In this document: piece by piece, positions 36,888 through 40,897 of the stretch
How positions within the stretch are numbered: the first letter of the stretch is position 1
How the letters are laid out: every line of letters starts with the position of its first letter
Source of the DNA: a virus
Lineage: Duplodnaviria; Heunggongvirae; Uroviricota; Caudoviricetes; Crassvirales
IMG/VR virus record: IMGVR_UViG_3300025288_000016
Span: 431 to 64,430 of that record
Reading direction: 5' to 3' (one strand)
Length of the DNA: 64,000 nucleotides
The notes under the pieces: generated by a model
Told to the model about the DNA's origin: nothing
The model's database searches: none
Seen by the model: only the letters and a program-made list of their open reading frames with translations
Made by a program: the position numbers and the translations under genes

Positions 36888-37073
36888 ATGACATTAAATG
36901 AATTTAAAAAATCAGTATATTATACTGAAAAAATGATAGTAATACCAATATTAGGTAGAATGAGAATTAATAAAGTTCAATTTATGAAACAAGGTAAATG
37001 GATACCTGAATTATTAAATATATATCTTTATGAATTATACGAAAATAATTATAATAAAATAAAAAATAAATGA
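36888..37073 (+). CDS. hypothetical small protein
   Basis: 61-aa ORF. Confidence 0.3.
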   Translation: MTLNEFKKSVYYTEKMIVIPILGRMRINKVQFMKQGKWIPELLNIYLYELYENNYNKIKNK

Positions 37074-37237
37074 GTTTATATAATAGAGTATATGAAAACT
37101 TAATTGAAAGAAGAGAAAGAATATTAAATGGAAAAATAAATTGTATTCCTTGGAATTTACCTAGATTTGAAAATCAACTTCCAGGTATAGAACAAGGAAA
37201 ATATTATTTAATTACTGCAAATAGTTTTAGTTTATAA
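37070..37237 (+). CDS. DnaB-like (SF4) replicative helicase, 5' exon or fragment (N-terminal ~55 aa up to the P-loop approach)
   Basis: Manual translation MSLYNRVYENLIERRERILNGKINCIPWNLPRFENQLPGIEQGKYYLITANSFSL*. IPWNLPRFENQLPGIEQGKYYLITA matches the ..G..lD..l.Gl..G.l.li.A..pg lead-in to Walker A in the DnaB/RecA fold. The frame is stopped at 37235-37. Confidence 0.55.
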   Translation: MSLYNRVYENLIERRERILNGKINCIPWNLPRFENQLPGIEQGKYYLITANSFSL

Positions 37238-37451
37238 ACAAACAAAAGCTACGCTAGATGGTGACATCTAGATGAGTATCCTTTGAATTGCTGGAAAATC
37301 TAAACAAGTAATGTTGTAGACAATCAGCAGCCAAGCTTACAGAGTAAGAAGGTTCAGAGACTAGTGCAATAAAGCACGTACACTATAAGTTAATGATAGT
37401 GGAAGCGGAGGACATCTCTATGAGATGAAGATATAGTCCATTCTATATAGA
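37238..37451 (+). mobile_element. Group I intron core (second copy of the polB-intron family; apparently complete P1-P9 in ~215 nt)
   Basis: Shares TGAATTGCTGGAAAAyCTAAA, CAATCAGCAGCsAAGCyTACAGAGTArGAAsGTTCAGAGACTA and GATATAGTCC blocks with 33774-34167. Ends with a CTATATA-GAAA-TATATAG P9-like hairpin and ...CAG. Confidence 0.6.
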
Positions 37452-37489
37452 AATATATAGCAGTTTAATTAATTTTAAAAAATAATATT

Positions 37490-37711
37490 ATGAAAAAAAC
37501 TAAATGTCCAAAATGTAATAAAGAAAATACAAATGCCATTCTTTTAGAATGTAGTGCTACACATATAACAGAAACTTGTAAAAATGTTATAGGATTTAAA
37601 AAATCTATTTGGAATTATTTGTTTTTTACAGATGCTTCAAAACCCATATTTTGTAATTTTATAGGATGGATGGATTTTGAAAATAAAGATAAATGGATTA
37701 AAATTAAGTAA
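37490..37711 (+). CDS. hypothetical Cys-rich small protein inside the helicase intervening region
   Basis: CPKCNKEN...C zinc-ribbon-like N-terminus. Confidence 0.35.
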   Translation: MKKTKCPKCNKENTNAILLECSATHITETCKNVIGFKKSIWNYLFFTDASKPIFCNFIGWMDFENKDKWIKIK

Positions 37712-37842
37712 ACGCATATAAGAGTTACGTCTTATATGGAATATAAAAGAAAATTGGTAAATTTTGCCCCTTTATATAGTAATATATAATTGAATTCAGA
37801 ATCCTAGAAATAGGGGTTAAAAAATTAAAAAGAATATAAATT

Positions 37843-38472
37843 ATGATAACTTTTTATAAAAAATTAAAAGGACAATATATTTATAAAGATTATAATGATG
37901 GTTATTATAGTTATTATAAAATAGAAAATGAAAAACTATCACAAATATTATCATTTAAAATTGGTAAAACAAATTCTTGTAGTAGTGAAAATATAAGTAA
38001 TATTAGTATAAGGATAGATGATACAGAAATAGTTAAAGAAATATTTCATTCGTTTGCTAGAAATAATAATATATTATATACTATGCAAAATGTAACTAAA
38101 AATAGTTATAATGACTTATTAAAAATAGGATTTAAAGACTATTTTAGATTTCCTGGTAAATATACAAGTAATTATGGTCATAAGGTAAAAGTTGAAGAAT
38201 GTTTATCATTAATGTTTTTAACATGTCTAAGTATGAAAAAAGCTTTAATAAAAACAAATGAACTAATATCTAAAATACATGATGATATTATAGTAAATAA
38301 TAATGTTGAAATTAATAAAAAATATTATTTATGTAGAATACCTACTAAAACTTTAACAAAAAATAAAATATATAATGTTTTGATAGATACAAATAATACA
38401 ATAACTATTATTAATGATAATAAAAATAAAATTACTATTGGAAAAAATAAATTTGAAGAAGTAACTTTTTAA
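37843..38472 (+). CDS. hypothetical protein inside the helicase intervening region (possible degenerate homing endonuclease)
   Basis: 209 aa, intron-embedded. Weak GQYIY...YYKI resemblance to a GIY-YIG N-terminus; not convincing. Confidence 0.35.
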   Translation: MITFYKKLKGQYIYKDYNDGYYSYYKIENEKLSQILSFKIGKTNSCSSENISNISIRIDDTEIVKEIFHSFARNNNILYTMQNVTKNSYNDLLKIGFKDYFRFPGKYTSNYGHKVKVEECLSLMFLTCLSMKKALIKTNELISKIHDDIIVNNNVEINKKYYLCRIPTKTLTKNKIYNVLIDTNNTITIINDNKNKITIGKNKFEEVTF

Positions 38473-38510
38473 TTAATTAGCTAACGGGGAAAACCTTTAA
38501 AAAATAAAAT

Positions 38511-38834
38511 ATGGAAATAGAATTTAATAACGGTATTAAAAAAACCACAACTGACTGTTGTGCAATGTGTCAAATAAGTAAAGTAAATAATGATACACCA
38601 ATAGAAGAAATAAAAAAAGTAATAAATTATTTGAAAGTACAAAAAGATGCTAATGTAGAAGTTGGTATAACTACAGGAAATGGTCAAACTGCCGTTTTTA
38701 CAATTGTTTCTCCTGGTGAAAATATTTTAGAAAAAAATCTAATAAAATTAGGATTTGAAAATAAACATTTATTTGAAAGAAGAGTTGGTTATCCAAATAT
38801 AGGTAACTTAAAAATGTATATTAAAAATTTATAG
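38511..38834 (+). CDS. hypothetical protein inside the helicase intervening region
   Basis: 107-aa ORF. Confidence 0.35.
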   Translation: MEIEFNNGIKKTTTDCCAMCQISKVNNDTPIEEIKKVINYLKVQKDANVEVGITTGNGQTAVFTIVSPGENILEKNLIKLGFENKHLFERRVGYPNIGNLKMYIKNL

Positions 38835-38835
38835 T

Positions 38836-39435
38836 ATGAAAGAACATTTAGTTTCTTGTAAAGGTGTTTATTTTAAGGTTAAGAATGATAAAAGTCAATT
38901 AAAAGTATCACGAAAAGATGCTAATTGTTTTGTATCTTTACCTTCTAATGAATATTTTAGTTCAAGACCATCATATATAACATTATATAATTATGAATGT
39001 AAAACAACTAAAGAATTCACTGATTTTTATATAAATTATATAATTGATATGTTAAAATTAGAAAATGTAATATTAAAAAAAAATATAATTACATTTAAAG
39101 CTTTTCCTGAAAGAAAGAAAAATTTATTAGTATTAACACTGTTAAGAATGTTATTTGAAGAAATGCGAGAATTTAATAACAAAATGAATATAAAAAATGT
39201 TCTTAATGTTAAATTTTTAAATAATTTAAAAAATGGCACTTGTGAATATACTGAAAAATTAGAAAGATTTTGTTATTTTTATAAAAATTTAATTGAAAAT
39301 CCAGAAAATGTACAATATTGGTCAGAAGGTCATACACCTAAACCATGGTTAACAGTAATTAAAAATTATGAAGATTTTAAAAATACTAATTTTATAAATA
39401 TTGGAGTAAATGACTTTTTTTATGGAAAAAAATAA
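38836..39435 (+). CDS. hypothetical protein inside the helicase intervening region
   Basis: 199-aa ORF. Confidence 0.4.
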   Translation: MKEHLVSCKGVYFKVKNDKSQLKVSRKDANCFVSLPSNEYFSSRPSYITLYNYECKTTKEFTDFYINYIIDMLKLENVILKKNIITFKAFPERKKNLLVLTLLRMLFEEMREFNNKMNIKNVLNVKFLNNLKNGTCEYTEKLERFCYFYKNLIENPENVQYWSEGHTPKPWLTVIKNYEDFKNTNFINIGVNDFFYGKK

Positions 39436-39754
39436 AGATAATCCCGTGCCGTCACTTGATAATTTAAAAAAAGAATTTTATAACAGAGAAGATTTGTGGA
39501 CATATGATAGTGGAACCACAGTTGAAAATGTTTTTAAATTTTTAAAAGAAAAATTACAAAACGGTGTAGAGACTAACAAGGAACAACCTAAAAAATTACC
39601 TACACATTTTAAAATTATAAAAGGTCCTTGGATTAATTATAGTTTTATAAATGTAGATAAATGGTATAAAATATCTGAATTACAATTATATAATAACCAA
39701 GTAAGCTGTAAAAGTTTTGCTTGGATAAATATAAAAGATTGTATTTTTAAATAG
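39410..39754 (+). CDS. hypothetical protein inside the helicase intervening region
   Basis: 114-aa ORF. Confidence 0.35.
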   Translation: MTFFMEKNKDNPVPSLDNLKKEFYNREDLWTYDSGTTVENVFKFLKEKLQNGVETNKEQPKKLPTHFKIIKGPWINYSFINVDKWYKISELQLYNNQVSCKSFAWINIKDCIFK

Positions 39755-39946
39755 GTTGATGAGATAGTCCGAACTATATGGTGACATATAGAATGTAGCA
39801 GAAATGACTACATCCCCAAGTAAAATAGGCAAGGGTTAGCCTCTTAACAACAACAGTAACCTTGCGTGAAAACAAGACCCGAAATATAAATAAATAGGTA
39901 TAACCTATTGATATATAAGTTAAAGCTGGTAACTGTTAAGAATATC
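39755..39946 (+). mobile_element. Intron-derived 3' element (P7-3'/P9-like) immediately upstream of the helicase 3' exon
   Basis: GAGATAGTCCGAACTATATGGTGACATATAGAATGTAGCAG resembles both the 5' hairpin (CTAGATGGTGACATCTAG) and the 3' end (GATATAGTCC...TATAG...TAGCAG) of element 37238-37451. A GCAAGGGTTA/TAACCTTGC hairpin follows. GC-richer than the flanks. Confidence 0.45.
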
Positions 39947-40897
39947 TTGGGAGTAACAAACTTGAAAACTCAAATAGCTGATTGGCTATTTTTGTATAAT
40001 ACTATTCAACAAGTTATTGATAATAATTTAAATATTCGTTTAAAAATATTCTATTTTACTTTAGAGATGTCTAAAGAGCAAAAAATGTTATCAGCATTTT
40101 CTAATATACTTTATGCAAAAGAAGGTATTAGAATAGCTCCTAAAGACCTTAGAAGTACTAAACAAGAATTAAGTGAAGAAAATTTAAAATTAATATCAAA
40201 ATATGAAGTCTATTTTAATAAAATAGAAGAAATTGTAGAATTTATAGATGACATAAGAAATCCTTTTGGTATTTATAAATTTATGAGAGATTATGCTTCA
40301 GTTAATGGAGTACAACATAAAAGAATTATTAAAACTAATGATAATAAAACTATTGAAGTTGATGATTATTATGAACCAAATGACCCTGATGAATATGTAA
40401 TGATGTTTATAGACCATATAGGTCTTATATCACCAGATTCAGAAAATGGAGAAAAACTTAATTTACATCAATCAATAGTTAAATTATCATCAGATTATTT
40501 ATTAAGACTTAGAAATAAATATAAATATATACCTGTTGTTATACAACAACAGGCTGCAGCTCAAGAATCTCTTGATAATTTTAAAGCTAACAAACTTAAA
40601 CCTAGTTCTGATGGATTAGGTGATTGTAAACTTACATATCGTGATGCTGATGTTATAATTGGATTATTTAGTCCTTTTAAATATGAAATTAGAGAATATA
40701 TGGGATATGATATTACTTTTTTTAAAGATAATATTAGATTTTTAGAGATTATTGGTGGTAGAGAAGGTGGCGGTGGTGAAATATGTCCATTATATTTTGA
40801 TGGTGCAGTTAATTATTTTAAAGAACTACCAAAGCCAGAAGATATACAAGGGCTTAAAAAAGTTTATGACTATATTAAATATGTAGTAAGAATATAA
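39947..40897 (+). CDS. DnaB-like replicative helicase, 3' exon (RecA-like core)
   Basis: Frame open from 39890. GVTNLKT (degenerate P-loop), FYFTLEMS (H1a), FIDHIGLI (Walker B-like) and SSDGLGDCKLTYRDADVIIGLFSP (DnaB lsDLreSG.iEqdADvv). The 5' boundary is uncertain; the ORF track starts at TTG 39908. Confidence 0.6.
   Translation: MGVTNLKTQIADWLFLYNTIQQVIDNNLNIRLKIFYFTLEMSKEQKMLSAFSNILYAKEGIRIAPKDLRSTKQELSEENLKLISKYEVYFNKIEEIVEFIDDIRNPFGIYKFMRDYASVNGVQHKRIIKTNDNKTIEVDDYYEPNDPDEYVMMFIDHIGLISPDSENGEKLNLHQSIVKLSSDYLLRLRNKYKYIPVVIQQQAAAQESLDNFKANKLKPSSDGLGDCKLTYRDADVIIGLFSPFKYEIREYMGYDITFFKDNIRFLEIIGGREGGGGEICPLYFDGAVNYFKELPKPEDIQGLKKVYDYIKYVVRI

What the first reader, a model, noticed from the sequence alone, without database searches (positions are those of the whole stretch)
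37070..40897. DnaB-like helicase interrupted just before its P-loop by a 2.7-kb insert containing a complete-looking mini group I intron, five ORFs and a second intron-3'-like element (possible nested intron or twintron)
The 56-codon 5' fragment ends ...GKYYLITANSFSL* exactly where Walker A should begin. The RecA-like core with DnaB motifs resumes at ~39947. Between them, 37238-37451 looks like a complete 215-nt group I intron (P3-P7 blocks, GATATAGTCC, P9 GAAA hairpin, terminal G). All three frames are closed right after it. Five ORFs follow (37490-39754), then 39755-39946 repeats intron 5'-hairpin-like and 3'-end-like sequences. Possible explanations are a large intron with its core at the 5' end and ORFs in a 3' extension, as in T4 nrdD/sunY. 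Alternatively an intron nested in an intron, a helicase translated as two polypeptides, or trans-acting ribozyme pieces. Any of these is unusual.
Basis: partly seen in the sequence, partly recalled or inferred. Interest (0 to 1): 0.7.

Follow-up and report, generated by a model that had tools for sequence, protein, structure and literature searches.

The report
Two tandem introns split helicase
The replicative helicase gene of this crAss-like phage is cut inside its ATP-binding loop by two separate self-splicing group I introns only nine bases apart, and the second intron is unusual because its ribozyme is scattered in pieces between and inside four protein-coding genes.

Summary
The interruption is real, but it is not one 2.7-kb insert and not a nested intron. 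It is two tandem group I introns separated by a 9-nt mini-exon.

The layout is:
- exon 1, 37070-37225 (...ITANS)
- intron 1, 37226-37749
- mini-exon, 37750-37758 (AAAATTGGT = KIG)
- intron 2, 37759-39964
- exon 3, 39965-40897 (KTQIADW...)

Splicing restores the Walker A motif ANSKIGKT. The 365-aa product passes Pfam DnaB_C; the unspliced C-terminal fragment gave no hit.

Intron 1 is a Twort/Kayvirus-type core plus a 73-codon ORF.

Intron 2 belongs to a different family. Its P1-P10 elements lie in five pieces. ORF2 sits between P3 and P4. ORF3 and ORF4 sit in L5. ORF5 is translated through P5'-P8'. Covariation across 12 related loci supports the fold: 94.6% of cells paired and 20 of 50 pairs compensatory. 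Rfam RF00028 scores a compact relative at 47 bits and assigns the same helices.

Relatives include intron-less alleles, alleles with intron 2 only (among them Cellulophaga phage phi14:2, whose DnaB is annotated as truncated), and alleles carrying GIY-YIG or LAGLIDADG endonuclease genes.

Verdict: a new variant of a known kind. Splicing itself has not been tested.

The parts
37070..37225 (+). Helicase exon 1 (52 codons, M...GKYYLITANS). The last base is U, paired with G of the intron 1 guide sequence.
   Evidence: tblastn to relatives, junction comparison, intact homologue cr108_1.
37226..37749 (+). Intron 1, 524 nt, Twort/Kayvirus-type group I (IA2-like, with P7.1 and P7.2). It ends in G37749.
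   Evidence: The 3' end ...GGAAUAUAAAAG| is conserved in L005, L008 and L012.
37245..37251 (+). Intron 1 internal guide sequence AAAGCUA. It pairs with exon UAGU (37222-37225) and intron UUU (37226-37228) to form P1.
   Evidence: Read from the sequence. L008 has the compensatory pair AA/UU.
37254..37463 (+). Intron 1 core, P2 to P9. P7 5' strand GACUA is at 37359-37363, P7 3' strand UAGUC at 37434-37438, and the P9 GAAA hairpin at 37443-37460.
   Evidence: RNAalifold on 6 sequences gave 30 of 61 pairs with compensatory change. The core is collinear with RF00028-positive introns.
37490..37711 (+). ORF1, 73 aa, placed after P9 of intron 1. No known family. L012 has a different small ORF at the same spot.
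37712..37749 (+). Intron 1 3'-terminal hairpin (AUAUAAGA-GUUACG-UCUUAUAU) and 3' splice site.
   Evidence: The stem covaries in L008.
37750..37758 (+). Mini-exon AAAATTGGT (K-I-G), the middle of Walker A.
   Evidence: The same 9 nt are found between two introns in L005, L008 and L012, and are contiguous in the intron-less L011.
37759..39964 (+). Intron 2, 2206 nt. A group I intron of a second family whose core is dispersed among ORFs. It ends in G39964.
37759..37842 (+). Intron 2 piece A. IGS UUUUGCC at 37762-37768 forms P1 with exon GGU and P10 with exon 3 AAAA. P2 hairpin with GUAA loop at 37771-37789. P3 5' strand UUCA at 37795-37798, followed by GAAU. Hairpin a, CCUAGAAAUAGG, at 37803-37814. 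Then the 5' strand of the AU-rich hairpin b.
37843..38472 (+). ORF2, 209 aa, in the loop of hairpin b between P3 and P4. No homologue in relatives, which carry other ORFs at this site.
38478..38500 (+). Intron 2 block 0, UAGCUAACGGGGAAAACCUUUA. P4 5' strand ACGGGG at 38484-38489, J4/5 AAAA, P5 5' strand at 38494-38498.
   Evidence: Conserved in 12 of 12 loci. Two compensatory events in P4.
38511..38834 (+). ORF3, 107 aa, in L5. A conserved family with a predicted GNAT-like fold. Not a homing endonuclease.
   Evidence: Free-standing in L097.
38836..39435 (+). ORF4, 199 aa, in L5. Conserved at about 40% identity in five relatives. No known family.
39410..39754 (+). ORF5, 114 aa. Its frame runs through P5'-P4'-P6-P7-P3'-P8 and stops at the UAG that begins the P8 3' strand.
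   Evidence: The frame is kept in 33 of 33 loci.
39431..39456 (+). Intron 2 block 1. P5 3' strand AAAGA at 39434-39438, J5/4 AAU, P4 3' strand UCCCGU at 39442-39447, P6 5' strand GCCGU at 39448-39452.
39558..39593 (+). Intron 2 block 2. P6 3' strand ACGGU at 39561-39565, J6/7 GUA, P7 5' strand G(A)GACUA at 39569-39575, P3 3' strand GGAA at 39580-39583, P8 5' strand CAACCUA at 39584-39590.
39752..39813 (+). Intron 2 piece B. P8 3' strand UAGGUUG at 39752-39758, J8/7 AUGAGA, P7 3' strand UAGUCC at 39765-39770, GAAC, P9 at 39774-39791, and P9.1 with the CAGAAAUG loop at 39793-39813.
39815..39951 (+). Window-specific structured extension (P9.2-like), closed by CCCAAG/CUUGGG.
   Evidence: Fold z = -3.2. 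Absent from relatives.
39952..39964 (+). Conserved 3' terminus AGUAACAAACUUG, ending in the terminal G.
39965..40897 (+). Helicase exon 3 (KTQIADW..., 310 codons plus stop).

Best explanation
The DnaB-like helicase gene is interrupted within the codons of its Walker A loop by two independent group I introns that entered 9 nt apart.

Both introns use the standard group I chemistry. The last exon base is a U wobble-paired to a G of an internal guide sequence (P1). An external guanosine attacks there. The freed exon then attacks after the intron's terminal G.

Intron 1 (37226-37749) is a compact Twort/Kayvirus-type ribozyme with a small ORF after P9.

Intron 2 (37759-39964) has the same kind of core, but the core is spread over five segments:
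- ORF2 sits in a hairpin between P3 and P4.
- ORF3 and ORF4 fill L5.
- L6 and L8 are expanded and are read as part of ORF5, which runs through the core.
- P9 to P9.2 follow.

Long-range pairing (P3, P4, P5, P6, P7, P8) reassembles the ribozyme over 2.2 kb. The guide sequence UUUUGCC aligns the mini-exon (GGU) and exon 3 (AAAA).

Removing both introns joins exon 1, the 9-nt exon and exon 3 into mRNA for a 365-aa helicase with an intact AxxxxGKT loop.

Shown here: the anatomy, the conservation, the covariation and the restored reading frame. Inferred: that splicing happens, that it happens in cis on one transcript, and that the internal ORFs are expressed.
For: Junctions:
- Intron-less alleles read AAT AGT AAA GTA GGT AAA ACA (L011), and likewise cr108_1 and L015.
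- The window lacks AAAGTxGGT after AGT but has AAAATTGGT at 37750, followed by the same GCCCC-plus-P2 leader that starts the intron in intron-2-only relatives.
- In L014 the same intron sits 4 nt upstream and still restores ANSKVGKTQ. Its guide sequence changes in step with the new 3' exon (UCU with AGG).

Intron 1:
- 70-76% identical to Kayvirus and Bacillus phage introns that score 87-92 bits on RF00028.
- Consensus fold with 30 of 61 compensatory pairs.

Intron 2:
- Blocks are invariant at the nucleotide level, including synonymous codon positions, in 12 of 12 loci.
- 94.6% of cells are paired. 20 of 50 pairs change on both sides, against 2-6 when partners are slid. 0 of 500 shuffles reach the observed values.
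- P7 switches A-U to G-C six against six.
- RF00028 scores the compact relative L035 at 47.3 bits (E = 7e-11) and assigns the same P4-P9.

Product:
- The spliced protein hits Pfam DnaB_C at 34.5 bits (cut-off 27), spanning the junctions. The unspliced C-terminal fragment gave no hit.
- PDB 4a1f aligns GARPSMGKT with TANSKIGKT.

Mobility:
- GIY-YIG and LAGLIDADG genes occur in relatives' introns.

Transcription:
- No terminator-like site on the + strand across the region.
Against: - No RNA data exist, so splicing is inferred.
- RF00028 finds nothing in the window, or in L005, L008, L012 and L003, at its threshold or at E<=10.
- P1 of intron 2 has only 3 exon pairs. P3 in the window has 3 good pairs plus an A.G mismatch.
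- Two hairpins and an ORF between P3 and P4 do not belong to the canonical group I plan. I know of no precedent (own knowledge).
- A ribosome translating ORF5 would unfold the core.
- I derived the covariation structure from these same sequences, on a composite alignment with the loops cut out.
- Intron 1 has no evident P10.
Confidence: 0.85

Rival explanations
1. One large intron of the T4 nrdD/sunY type (core at the 5' end, ORFs in a 3' extension), or an intron nested inside another (twintron).
For: Intron 1 alone does look sunY-like: core, then ORF1, then a 3' hairpin. P7'/P9-like sequence occurs twice.
Against: Joining 37225 directly to 39965 gives ANS|KTQ with no KIG, so no Walker A glycine. 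The 9-nt exon is flanked by a terminal G on one side and by its own P1 and guide sequence on the other. At least seven relatives in the first set of related loci carry only the downstream intron, at GGU|. The second P7' pairs with its own P7 inside ORF5 and covaries with it.
Confidence: 0.03
2. No splicing. The helicase is made as two polypeptides, a 55-60-aa N-terminal piece and a C-terminal piece started at the TTG just before AAA ACT, which associate.
For: TTG is in frame directly upstream of KTQ in the window and most relatives. Phage phi14:2 is annotated with separate genes.
Against: The P-loop would be cut between G and K, and in the window the KIG codons would be lost. In L014 the TTG is out of frame and GKTQIVDWLF would not be translated. 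This does not explain the covarying P1/P10 and the core helices. The unspliced C fragment fails Pfam DnaB_C.
Confidence: 0.03
3. The chemistry is the same but happens in trans. The intron 2 pieces are on separate transcripts, made from internal promoters or by processing around the ORFs, and assemble by base pairing as a discontinuous group I intron.
For: The core is already in five pieces held together only by long-range helices. Flanking helices close the ORF-bearing loops. The related intron reaches 3.6 kb in L007.
Against: Everything is on one strand and tightly packed. No terminator-like site was found on the + strand. The promoter scan is no better than shuffled sequence. Cis folding is the simpler reading.
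Confidence: 0.07
4. Intron 2 in this phage is a decayed, non-functional relic, and the helicase is a pseudogene.
For: P1 and P3 are weak. There is no homing endonuclease gene. The 140-nt extension at 39815-39951 is specific to this window.
Against: All core strands are intact and identical to the family consensus. Exons are open and 75-86% identical to relatives. The same arrangement is kept in more than 20 contigs, including a cultured, viable phage, phi14:2.
Confidence: 0.03

Closest known systems
Group I introns of Staphylococcus phages Twort/K (Kayvirus) and Bacillus Herelleviridae phages (subgroup IA2; Rfam RF00028)
   Same: Intron 1 matches them helix for helix (P2-P9, with P7.1 and P7.2). 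J8/7-P7' is identical (AAGAUAUAGUC). The P9 hairpin is identical to the Kayvirus PM25 intron, one of the two scored with RF00028. Nucleotide identity is 70-76%. Relatives carry a GIY-YIG gene.
   Different: The host is a crAss-like phage of Bacteroidota-type relatives. The insertion site is the helicase Walker A. The window's copy carries a 73-codon ORF of no known family after P9. RF00028 does not score it.
T4 td, nrdB and nrdD (sunY) introns: phage group I introns with one ORF looped out of the core
   Same: ORFs sit in peripheral loops closed by helices. Stop codons close the exon frame soon after the 5' splice site. The target is a conserved site in a DNA-metabolism gene (own knowledge of these introns).
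   Different: The T4 introns carry a single endonuclease ORF in one loop. Intron 2 carries four ORFs at three or four positions (between P3 and P4, in L5, through L6/L8, and in L9 in relatives). None in the window is a recognisable endonuclease.
Group I introns reported in crAss-like phages (Yutin et al. 2021, PMC7886860)
   Same: Same virus order. Self-splicing introns in core replication and structural genes. The window's PolB is also split.
   Different: [quoted passage not shown] The helicase P-loop introns of the phi14:2 lineage, which often lack an endonuclease gene, are not listed. RefSeq still annotates phi14:2 DnaB as a truncated gene.
Fungal mitochondrial group I introns with non-endonuclease or multiple ORFs (for example rps3 in the LSU rRNA intron) and ORFs that overlap core helices
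   Same: Ordinary genes housed inside a group I intron. Reading frames extend into core structure (own knowledge).
   Different: Those are organellar, usually with one or two ORFs. Here a phage intron carries a small set of genes, with a conserved frame threaded through P5'-P8' in 33 of 33 loci.
Inteins in the P-loop of DnaB and MCM helicases
   Same: The same kind of target: the most conserved codons of a replicative helicase. Several insertion sites lie within a few codons of each other (PMC10643990, seen).
   Different: Inteins splice at the protein level. Here both elements are RNA introns. The exon 1 extension and exon 3 have no intein blocks.

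Membership tests
Group I intron - intron 1 (37226-37749) | 5' exon ends in U, wobble-paired to G of an internal guide sequence (P1) | tested here: met
   UAGU|UUU pairs with AAAGCUA (37245-37251). L008 has the compensatory pair AA/UU.
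Group I intron - intron 1 (37226-37749) | Conserved core P3-P9 with J8/7 and P7 | tested here: met
   Collinear with RF00028-positive introns. P2-P6, P7.1, P7.2 and P8 were recovered with 30 of 61 compensatory pairs. The P7 pseudoknot was read by eye only.
Group I intron - intron 1 (37226-37749) | Terminal G at the 3' splice site | tested here: met
   G37749. The terminal G is conserved in L005, L008 and L012.
Group I intron - intron 1 (37226-37749) | Scores at or above the Rfam RF00028 gathering score | tested here: not met
   No hit in the window at gathering or at E<=10, nor in L005, L008 or L012.
Group I intron - intron 2 (37759-39964) | P1 with a U.G pair at the 5' splice site, and P10 on the same guide sequence | tested here: met
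   GGU|/GCC is invariant in 12 of 12 loci. P10 AAAA/UUUU covaries in L014 and L003.
Group I intron - intron 2 (37759-39964) | P3-P8 core with the P3/P7 pseudoknot | tested here: met
   94.6% paired. Compensatory changes in P3, P4, P5, P7 and P8. Slid and shuffled controls are far lower.
Group I intron - intron 2 (37759-39964) | Terminal G | tested here: met
   UUG| at 39964. Conserved in all loci, including the shifted L014.
Group I intron - intron 2 (37759-39964) | RF00028 score | tested here: inconclusive
   Nothing in the window. The compact family member L035 scores 47.3 bits against a gathering score of 50, E = 7e-11, with the same helix assignment.
Group I intron - intron 2 (37759-39964) | Short J3/4 joining P3 directly to P4 | tested here: not met
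   Two hairpins lie between GAAU and UAA-P4, and the second carries ORF2. Their ORF-less forms are seen in L012 and L053.
Group I intron (both introns) | Guanosine-dependent self-splicing | not testable with these tools
   Needs in vitro transcription and splicing, or RNA from infected cells.
Twintron (intron inside an intron) | One intron interrupts the sequence of another, so the inner one must be removed first | tested here: not met
   The two introns are adjacent and separated by a 9-nt exon.
Mobile intron with a homing endonuclease | Intron ORF with a GIY-YIG, LAGLIDADG, HNH or His-Cys box domain | tested here: not met
   The window's ORF1-5 have no Pfam or PHROG hit. Relatives do carry such genes: GIY-YIG in L008 and L012, LAGLIDADG in L008 and L013.
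DnaB-like replicative helicase (Pfam PF03796) | DnaB_C domain with Walker A GKT/S | tested here: met
   Met only after joining the three exons: 34.5 bits against a cut-off of 27. PDB 4a1f aligns across the junction.

The most novel reading that the evidence does not exclude
Intron 2 represents a group I intron family that works as a gene-carrying platform. Its ribozyme tolerates insertions at five or more positions, one of them between P3 and P4. It houses ordinary phage genes rather than endonucleases, for example the GNAT-like ORF3, which is free-standing elsewhere. It also keeps a translated frame through its own catalytic core, so helicase production could be tied to translation of ORF5 or to assembly of RNA pieces.
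Probability: 0.3. Interest if true: 0.75.

Novelty: new variant of a known kind. Interest (0 to 1): 0.62.

Why it matters
- It corrects gene models. In this lineage, including the cultured reference phage phi14:2, DnaB is annotated as a truncated gene and its first exon as a hypothetical protein.
- It explains why endonuclease-based or Rfam-based screens miss such introns.
- It gives a natural example of two group I introns that must both be removed around a 9-nt exon inside a P-loop.
- It gives a natural example of a ribozyme core that still assembles when broken up by several genes and read by ribosomes. That makes it a test case for RNA folding over kilobases and for how introns pick up cargo.

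Tried and rejected
- Rfam scans of the window at gathering and at E<=10, and of six related loci, found no group I hit. I judged this a sensitivity limit, not absence, because close relatives score 87-92 bits and the compact L035 scores 47 bits.
- I first tried to join exon 1 directly to exon 3 (ANSFSL+KTQ, ANSFS+KTQ, ANS+GVTNLKTQ). None gives a Walker A. I dropped this once the mini-exon was found.
- I looked for the intron 2 core only in non-coding gaps next to the ends and tried pairing piece A with piece B. That failed. The core was in the ORF2/ORF3 gap and inside ORF5.
- A split intein was considered because exon 1 read-through ends ...G[KR]xxCP. I rejected it because the C and P codons are the guide sequence GCCCC and exon 3 has no upstream intein part.
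- Pfam and PHROG searches of ORF1-5 gave nothing.
- tblastn of ORF3 against GenBank phages found no match.
- The sigma-70 promoter scan was uninformative: 48 found against 40 expected.
- The 15-mer scan of viral contigs returned 79 stretches, of which only 34 had block 2 nearby. The rest are likely chance matches.
- The hairpin b helix is not convincing in L003, L004 and L007.

Full report
**What the window is**

The region belongs to a crAss-like phage (Crassvirales). The nearest named records are Cellulophaga phage phi14:2 and gut phage cr108_1. Both match only the helicase core, at 64-70% nucleotide identity. Local gene order matches phi14:2: replisome organiser, small ORF, helicase 5' piece, several ORFs, then the helicase core.

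**Checking the observation**

The 55-aa ORF at 37070-37237 and the helicase core ORF ending at 40897 are there. The uninterrupted helicase of cr108_1 reads ...GKFLLFSANSKIGKTQIADD.... The break therefore lies inside Walker A (AxxxxGKT), not before it.

Rfam finds no group I intron in the window, at its gathering score or at E<=10. However, 37278-37469 is 70-76% identical to introns of Staphylococcus Kayvirus and Bacillus phages. One of these is annotated Intron_gpI, and two score 92 and 87 bits on RF00028.

**Finding the true junctions**

A scan of viral contigs with the exon 3 protein gave 13 related loci. Mapping both exons on them and reading the junctions showed three kinds of allele.

- No insert: L011 (AAT AGT AAA GTA GGT AAA ACA CAA), L015 and cr108_1.
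- One insert after ...AAA GTG GGT: L003 (phi14:2), L004, L007, L009, L010, L013 and L016. L014 has the same intron 4 nt upstream.
- The insert starts right after AAT AGT and the nine bases AAAGTGGGT seem to be missing: the window, L005/L006, L008 and L012.

In the third kind the nine bases are inside the insert. In the window, AAAATTGGT sits at 37750-37758. It is preceded by ...GGAAUAUAAAAG and followed by AAAUUUUGCCCC plus the same hairpin that starts the insert in the second kind.

So there are two introns, at sites 9 nt apart:
- exon 1, 37070-37225
- intron 1, 37226-37749
- mini-exon, 37750-37758
- intron 2, 37759-39964
- exon 3, 39965-40897

The joined mRNA encodes 365 aa with ...YYLITANS-KIG-KTQIADW.... 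It hits Pfam DnaB_C at 34.5 bits (cut-off 27) across the junctions. It also aligns with H. pylori DnaB (4a1f), GARPSMGKT to TANSKIGKT. The C-terminal fragment alone gave no Pfam hit.

**Evidence that the joining is RNA splicing**

Both introns follow an exon U and end in G.

For intron 2, the guide sequence UUUUGCC pairs with exon GGU (P1) and with the first bases of exon 3, AAAA (P10).

In L014 the same intron lies 4 nt upstream (AAGGU|...UUG|AGGAAAAACU), yet the joined frame is still ANSKVGKTQ. Its guide sequence reads UCU opposite the new 3' exon AGG. In that locus the TTG that could start a separate C-terminal polypeptide is out of frame. This argues against a two-protein helicase.

The exon frames meet stop codons four codons into intron 1 and seven codons into intron 2.

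**Intron 1**

Intron 1 is collinear with the Kayvirus and Bacillus phage introns: P1 (UAGU|UUU with AAAGCUA), P2, P3, P4, P5, P6, P7, P7.1, P7.2, P3', P8, J8/7 AAGAUAU, P7' and a GAAA-capped P9.

RNAalifold on six sequences recovers P2-P6, P7.1, P7.2 and P8, with 30 of 61 pairs keeping pairing through changes on both sides.

After P9 comes ORF1 (73 aa, no family). A terminal hairpin and the 3' splice site follow. L005 has the same intron without an ORF (302 nt). L008 and L012 carry a GIY-YIG/NUMOD endonuclease gene in the P1 loop. This patchy distribution and the endonuclease genes are what a mobile intron would show.

**Intron 2**

Its ends hold only P1, P2 and a 3' domain, so I searched for nucleotide blocks shared by all inserts. 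Four internal blocks are invariant in 12 of 12 loci, including the third positions of codons.

- Block 0 (window 38478-38500), in the 38-nt gap between ORF2 and ORF3, reads UAGCUAACGGGGAAAACCUUUA. It holds the P4 and P5 5' strands.
- Block 1 (39431-39456) reads AAAGAUAAUCCCGUGCCGUCA. It holds P5', J5/4, P4' and the P6 5' strand, laid out like GAC-AAU-CAGCAG-CC of intron 1.
- Block 2 (39558-39593) reads ACGGUGUAGAGACUAACAAGGAACAACCUA. It holds P6', J6/7, the P7 5' strand, P3' and the P8 5' strand.
- Piece B (from 39752) reads UAGGUUGAUGAGAUAGUCCGAAC. It holds P8', J8/7, P7' and J7/9. P9, P9.1, a window-specific 137-nt structured extension (z = -3.2) and AGUAACAAACUUG follow.

The P3 5' strand (UUCA, 37795-37798) lies in piece A after P2.

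On a composite alignment of the 12 loci, the proposed P1, P2, P3, P4, P5, P6, P7, P8 and P10 give these figures:
- 94.6% of cells paired
- 20 of 50 pairs with changes on both sides, against 2-6 when partners are slid by 1-3 columns
- 0 of 500 shuffles reaching any of the observed measures

P7 alternates A-U and G-C six against six, and P8 shows five pair types at one position.

As an independent check, a compact member of the same family (L035, core in about 200 nt) scores 47.3 bits, E = 7e-11, on RF00028, just under the gathering score of 50. The model assigns the same P4, P5, P6, P7, P8 and P9.

**Where the ORFs sit**

ORF2 lies between P3 and P4, in the loop of an AU-rich helix (duplex -11.4 kcal/mol against -6.4 +/- 1.8 for shuffles). 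This helix and a short hairpin before it exist without an ORF in L012 and L053. Helices between P3 and P4 are not part of the usual group I plan, so this feature is family-specific and is the least certain part of the model.

ORF3 and ORF4 fill L5. ORF3 belongs to a tight family of 138 proteins at 58-82% identity, all unnamed. Its model (pLDDT 93.8) resembles the GNAT acetyltransferase core (TM 0.55-0.66, E about 2e-3). In one contig it is free-standing among unrelated genes, with no intron blocks and no helicase exons nearby. It is therefore an ordinary phage gene housed in the intron, not a homing endonuclease.

ORF5 starts in L5, runs through blocks 1 and 2 (read as DNPVPS and NGVET.NE.P), and ends at the UAG that begins P8'. 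The distance from block 1 to block 2 varies from 25 to 196 nt but is 1 modulo 3 in 33 of 33 distinct loci. The stop is that UAG in 21 of 33. Even compact L035 keeps a 26-codon version. The frame is therefore under selection although it crosses the catalytic core. Its role is unknown.

Relatives put further ORFs in L9, before P3, after the P7 5' strand (L008) and inside P7' (L013). Two of these are LAGLIDADG genes.

**How it most likely works**

Both introns fold on the precursor and splice by the standard two-step guanosine-initiated pathway. The 9-nt exon serves as the 3' exon for intron 1 and the 5' exon for intron 2, which needs only GGU for P1. No terminator-like site interrupts the + strand, so one transcript and cis folding is the simplest reading.

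Splicing, its order, any protein helpers and expression of the internal ORFs are all inferred. None of these was observed.

**Comparison with what is known**

Group I introns are well known in phages. [quoted passage not shown] My searches of the held library found no report of helicase P-loop introns in this lineage. RefSeq still gives phi14:2 DnaB as an 843-nt gene starting at MSKEQK.

The class is therefore known. What is new is the arrangement:
- two introns 9 nt apart in Walker A
- a 2.2-kb intron (1.2-3.6 kb in relatives) whose core is dispersed among several mostly non-endonuclease genes
- a conserved frame through the core
- extra helices between P3 and P4

**Verdict**

It is a new variant of a known kind. 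Confidence in the anatomy is about 0.85, and interest is 0.62.

Noticed in passing
window 32841-35202 (intron about 33766-34413): The family B DNA polymerase is also split (...ILVDVDF|KAE*, resuming at ORF 34414-35202). The gap holds a group I core 80% identical to part of intron 1 (33798-33883), with the TTCAGAGACTA motif. phi14:2 PolB is annotated as a two-piece join.
   Followed up: partly
window 28427-28542: Rfam calls a tRNA (35.5 bits) with intact acceptor, D and T arms but about 57 extra bases in the anticodon/variable region. ARAGORN does not call it. It could be an interrupted or unusual tRNA, or a tRNA-like element.
   Followed up: partly
L003 (phi14:2, NC_021806) 6983-10708: The reference phage has the intron 2 type only. 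g024 is helicase exon 1 read through into the intron. g025-g028 lie inside the intron. g027 is the ORF5 equivalent that covers the core. g029, annotated DnaB, lacks its first 62 or so codons. The true join is ...AAAGTGGGT|...GATAG|AAATCACAA.
   Followed up: yes
L014 4293-5996: The same intron family is inserted 4 nt upstream of the usual site (after AAGGT), with a matching change in the guide sequence. This is either intron sliding or an independent insertion.
   Followed up: partly
L013 2585-3275 and 3448-4558: A LAGLIDADG gene is inserted inside the P7 3' strand of intron 2 (GAUAGU|about 670 nt|CCGAAC), which should disturb the guanosine-binding helix. The same helicase has a third insertion between FYFTLE and MSKEQ, with a P7'/P9-like match at 4497-4531.
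   Followed up: no
L035 10957-11153 and L071: A compact, nearly ORF-less version of the intron 2 core lies about 1.5 kb upstream of an uninterrupted helicase, so this intron family also occupies another gene. L047 has two such cores 1.6 kb apart.
   Followed up: partly
L097 4001-4300: The ORF3 homologue is free-standing next to genes with GGACT, COOH-NH2 ligase, RimK-like and Peptidase_C26 domains. That set suggests a small-molecule or base-modification pathway.
   Followed up: no
window 37226-37463; L005, L008, L012: RF00028 gives no hit at all, even at E<=10, for intron 1, although relatives 70-76% identical score 87-92 bits. This is either a blind spot of the model's filters on AT-rich sequence or an effect of the tool.
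   Followed up: partly
window 41086-41409: The gene just after the helicase has the N-terminal domain of dATP/dGTP diphosphohydrolase (PF18909, E = 1.7e-31).
   Followed up: no
window 39815-39951: A 137-nt structured extension closed by CCCAAG/CUUGGG, between P9.1 and the 3' terminus of intron 2. It has no counterpart in any relative examined, and its origin is unknown.
   Followed up: partly
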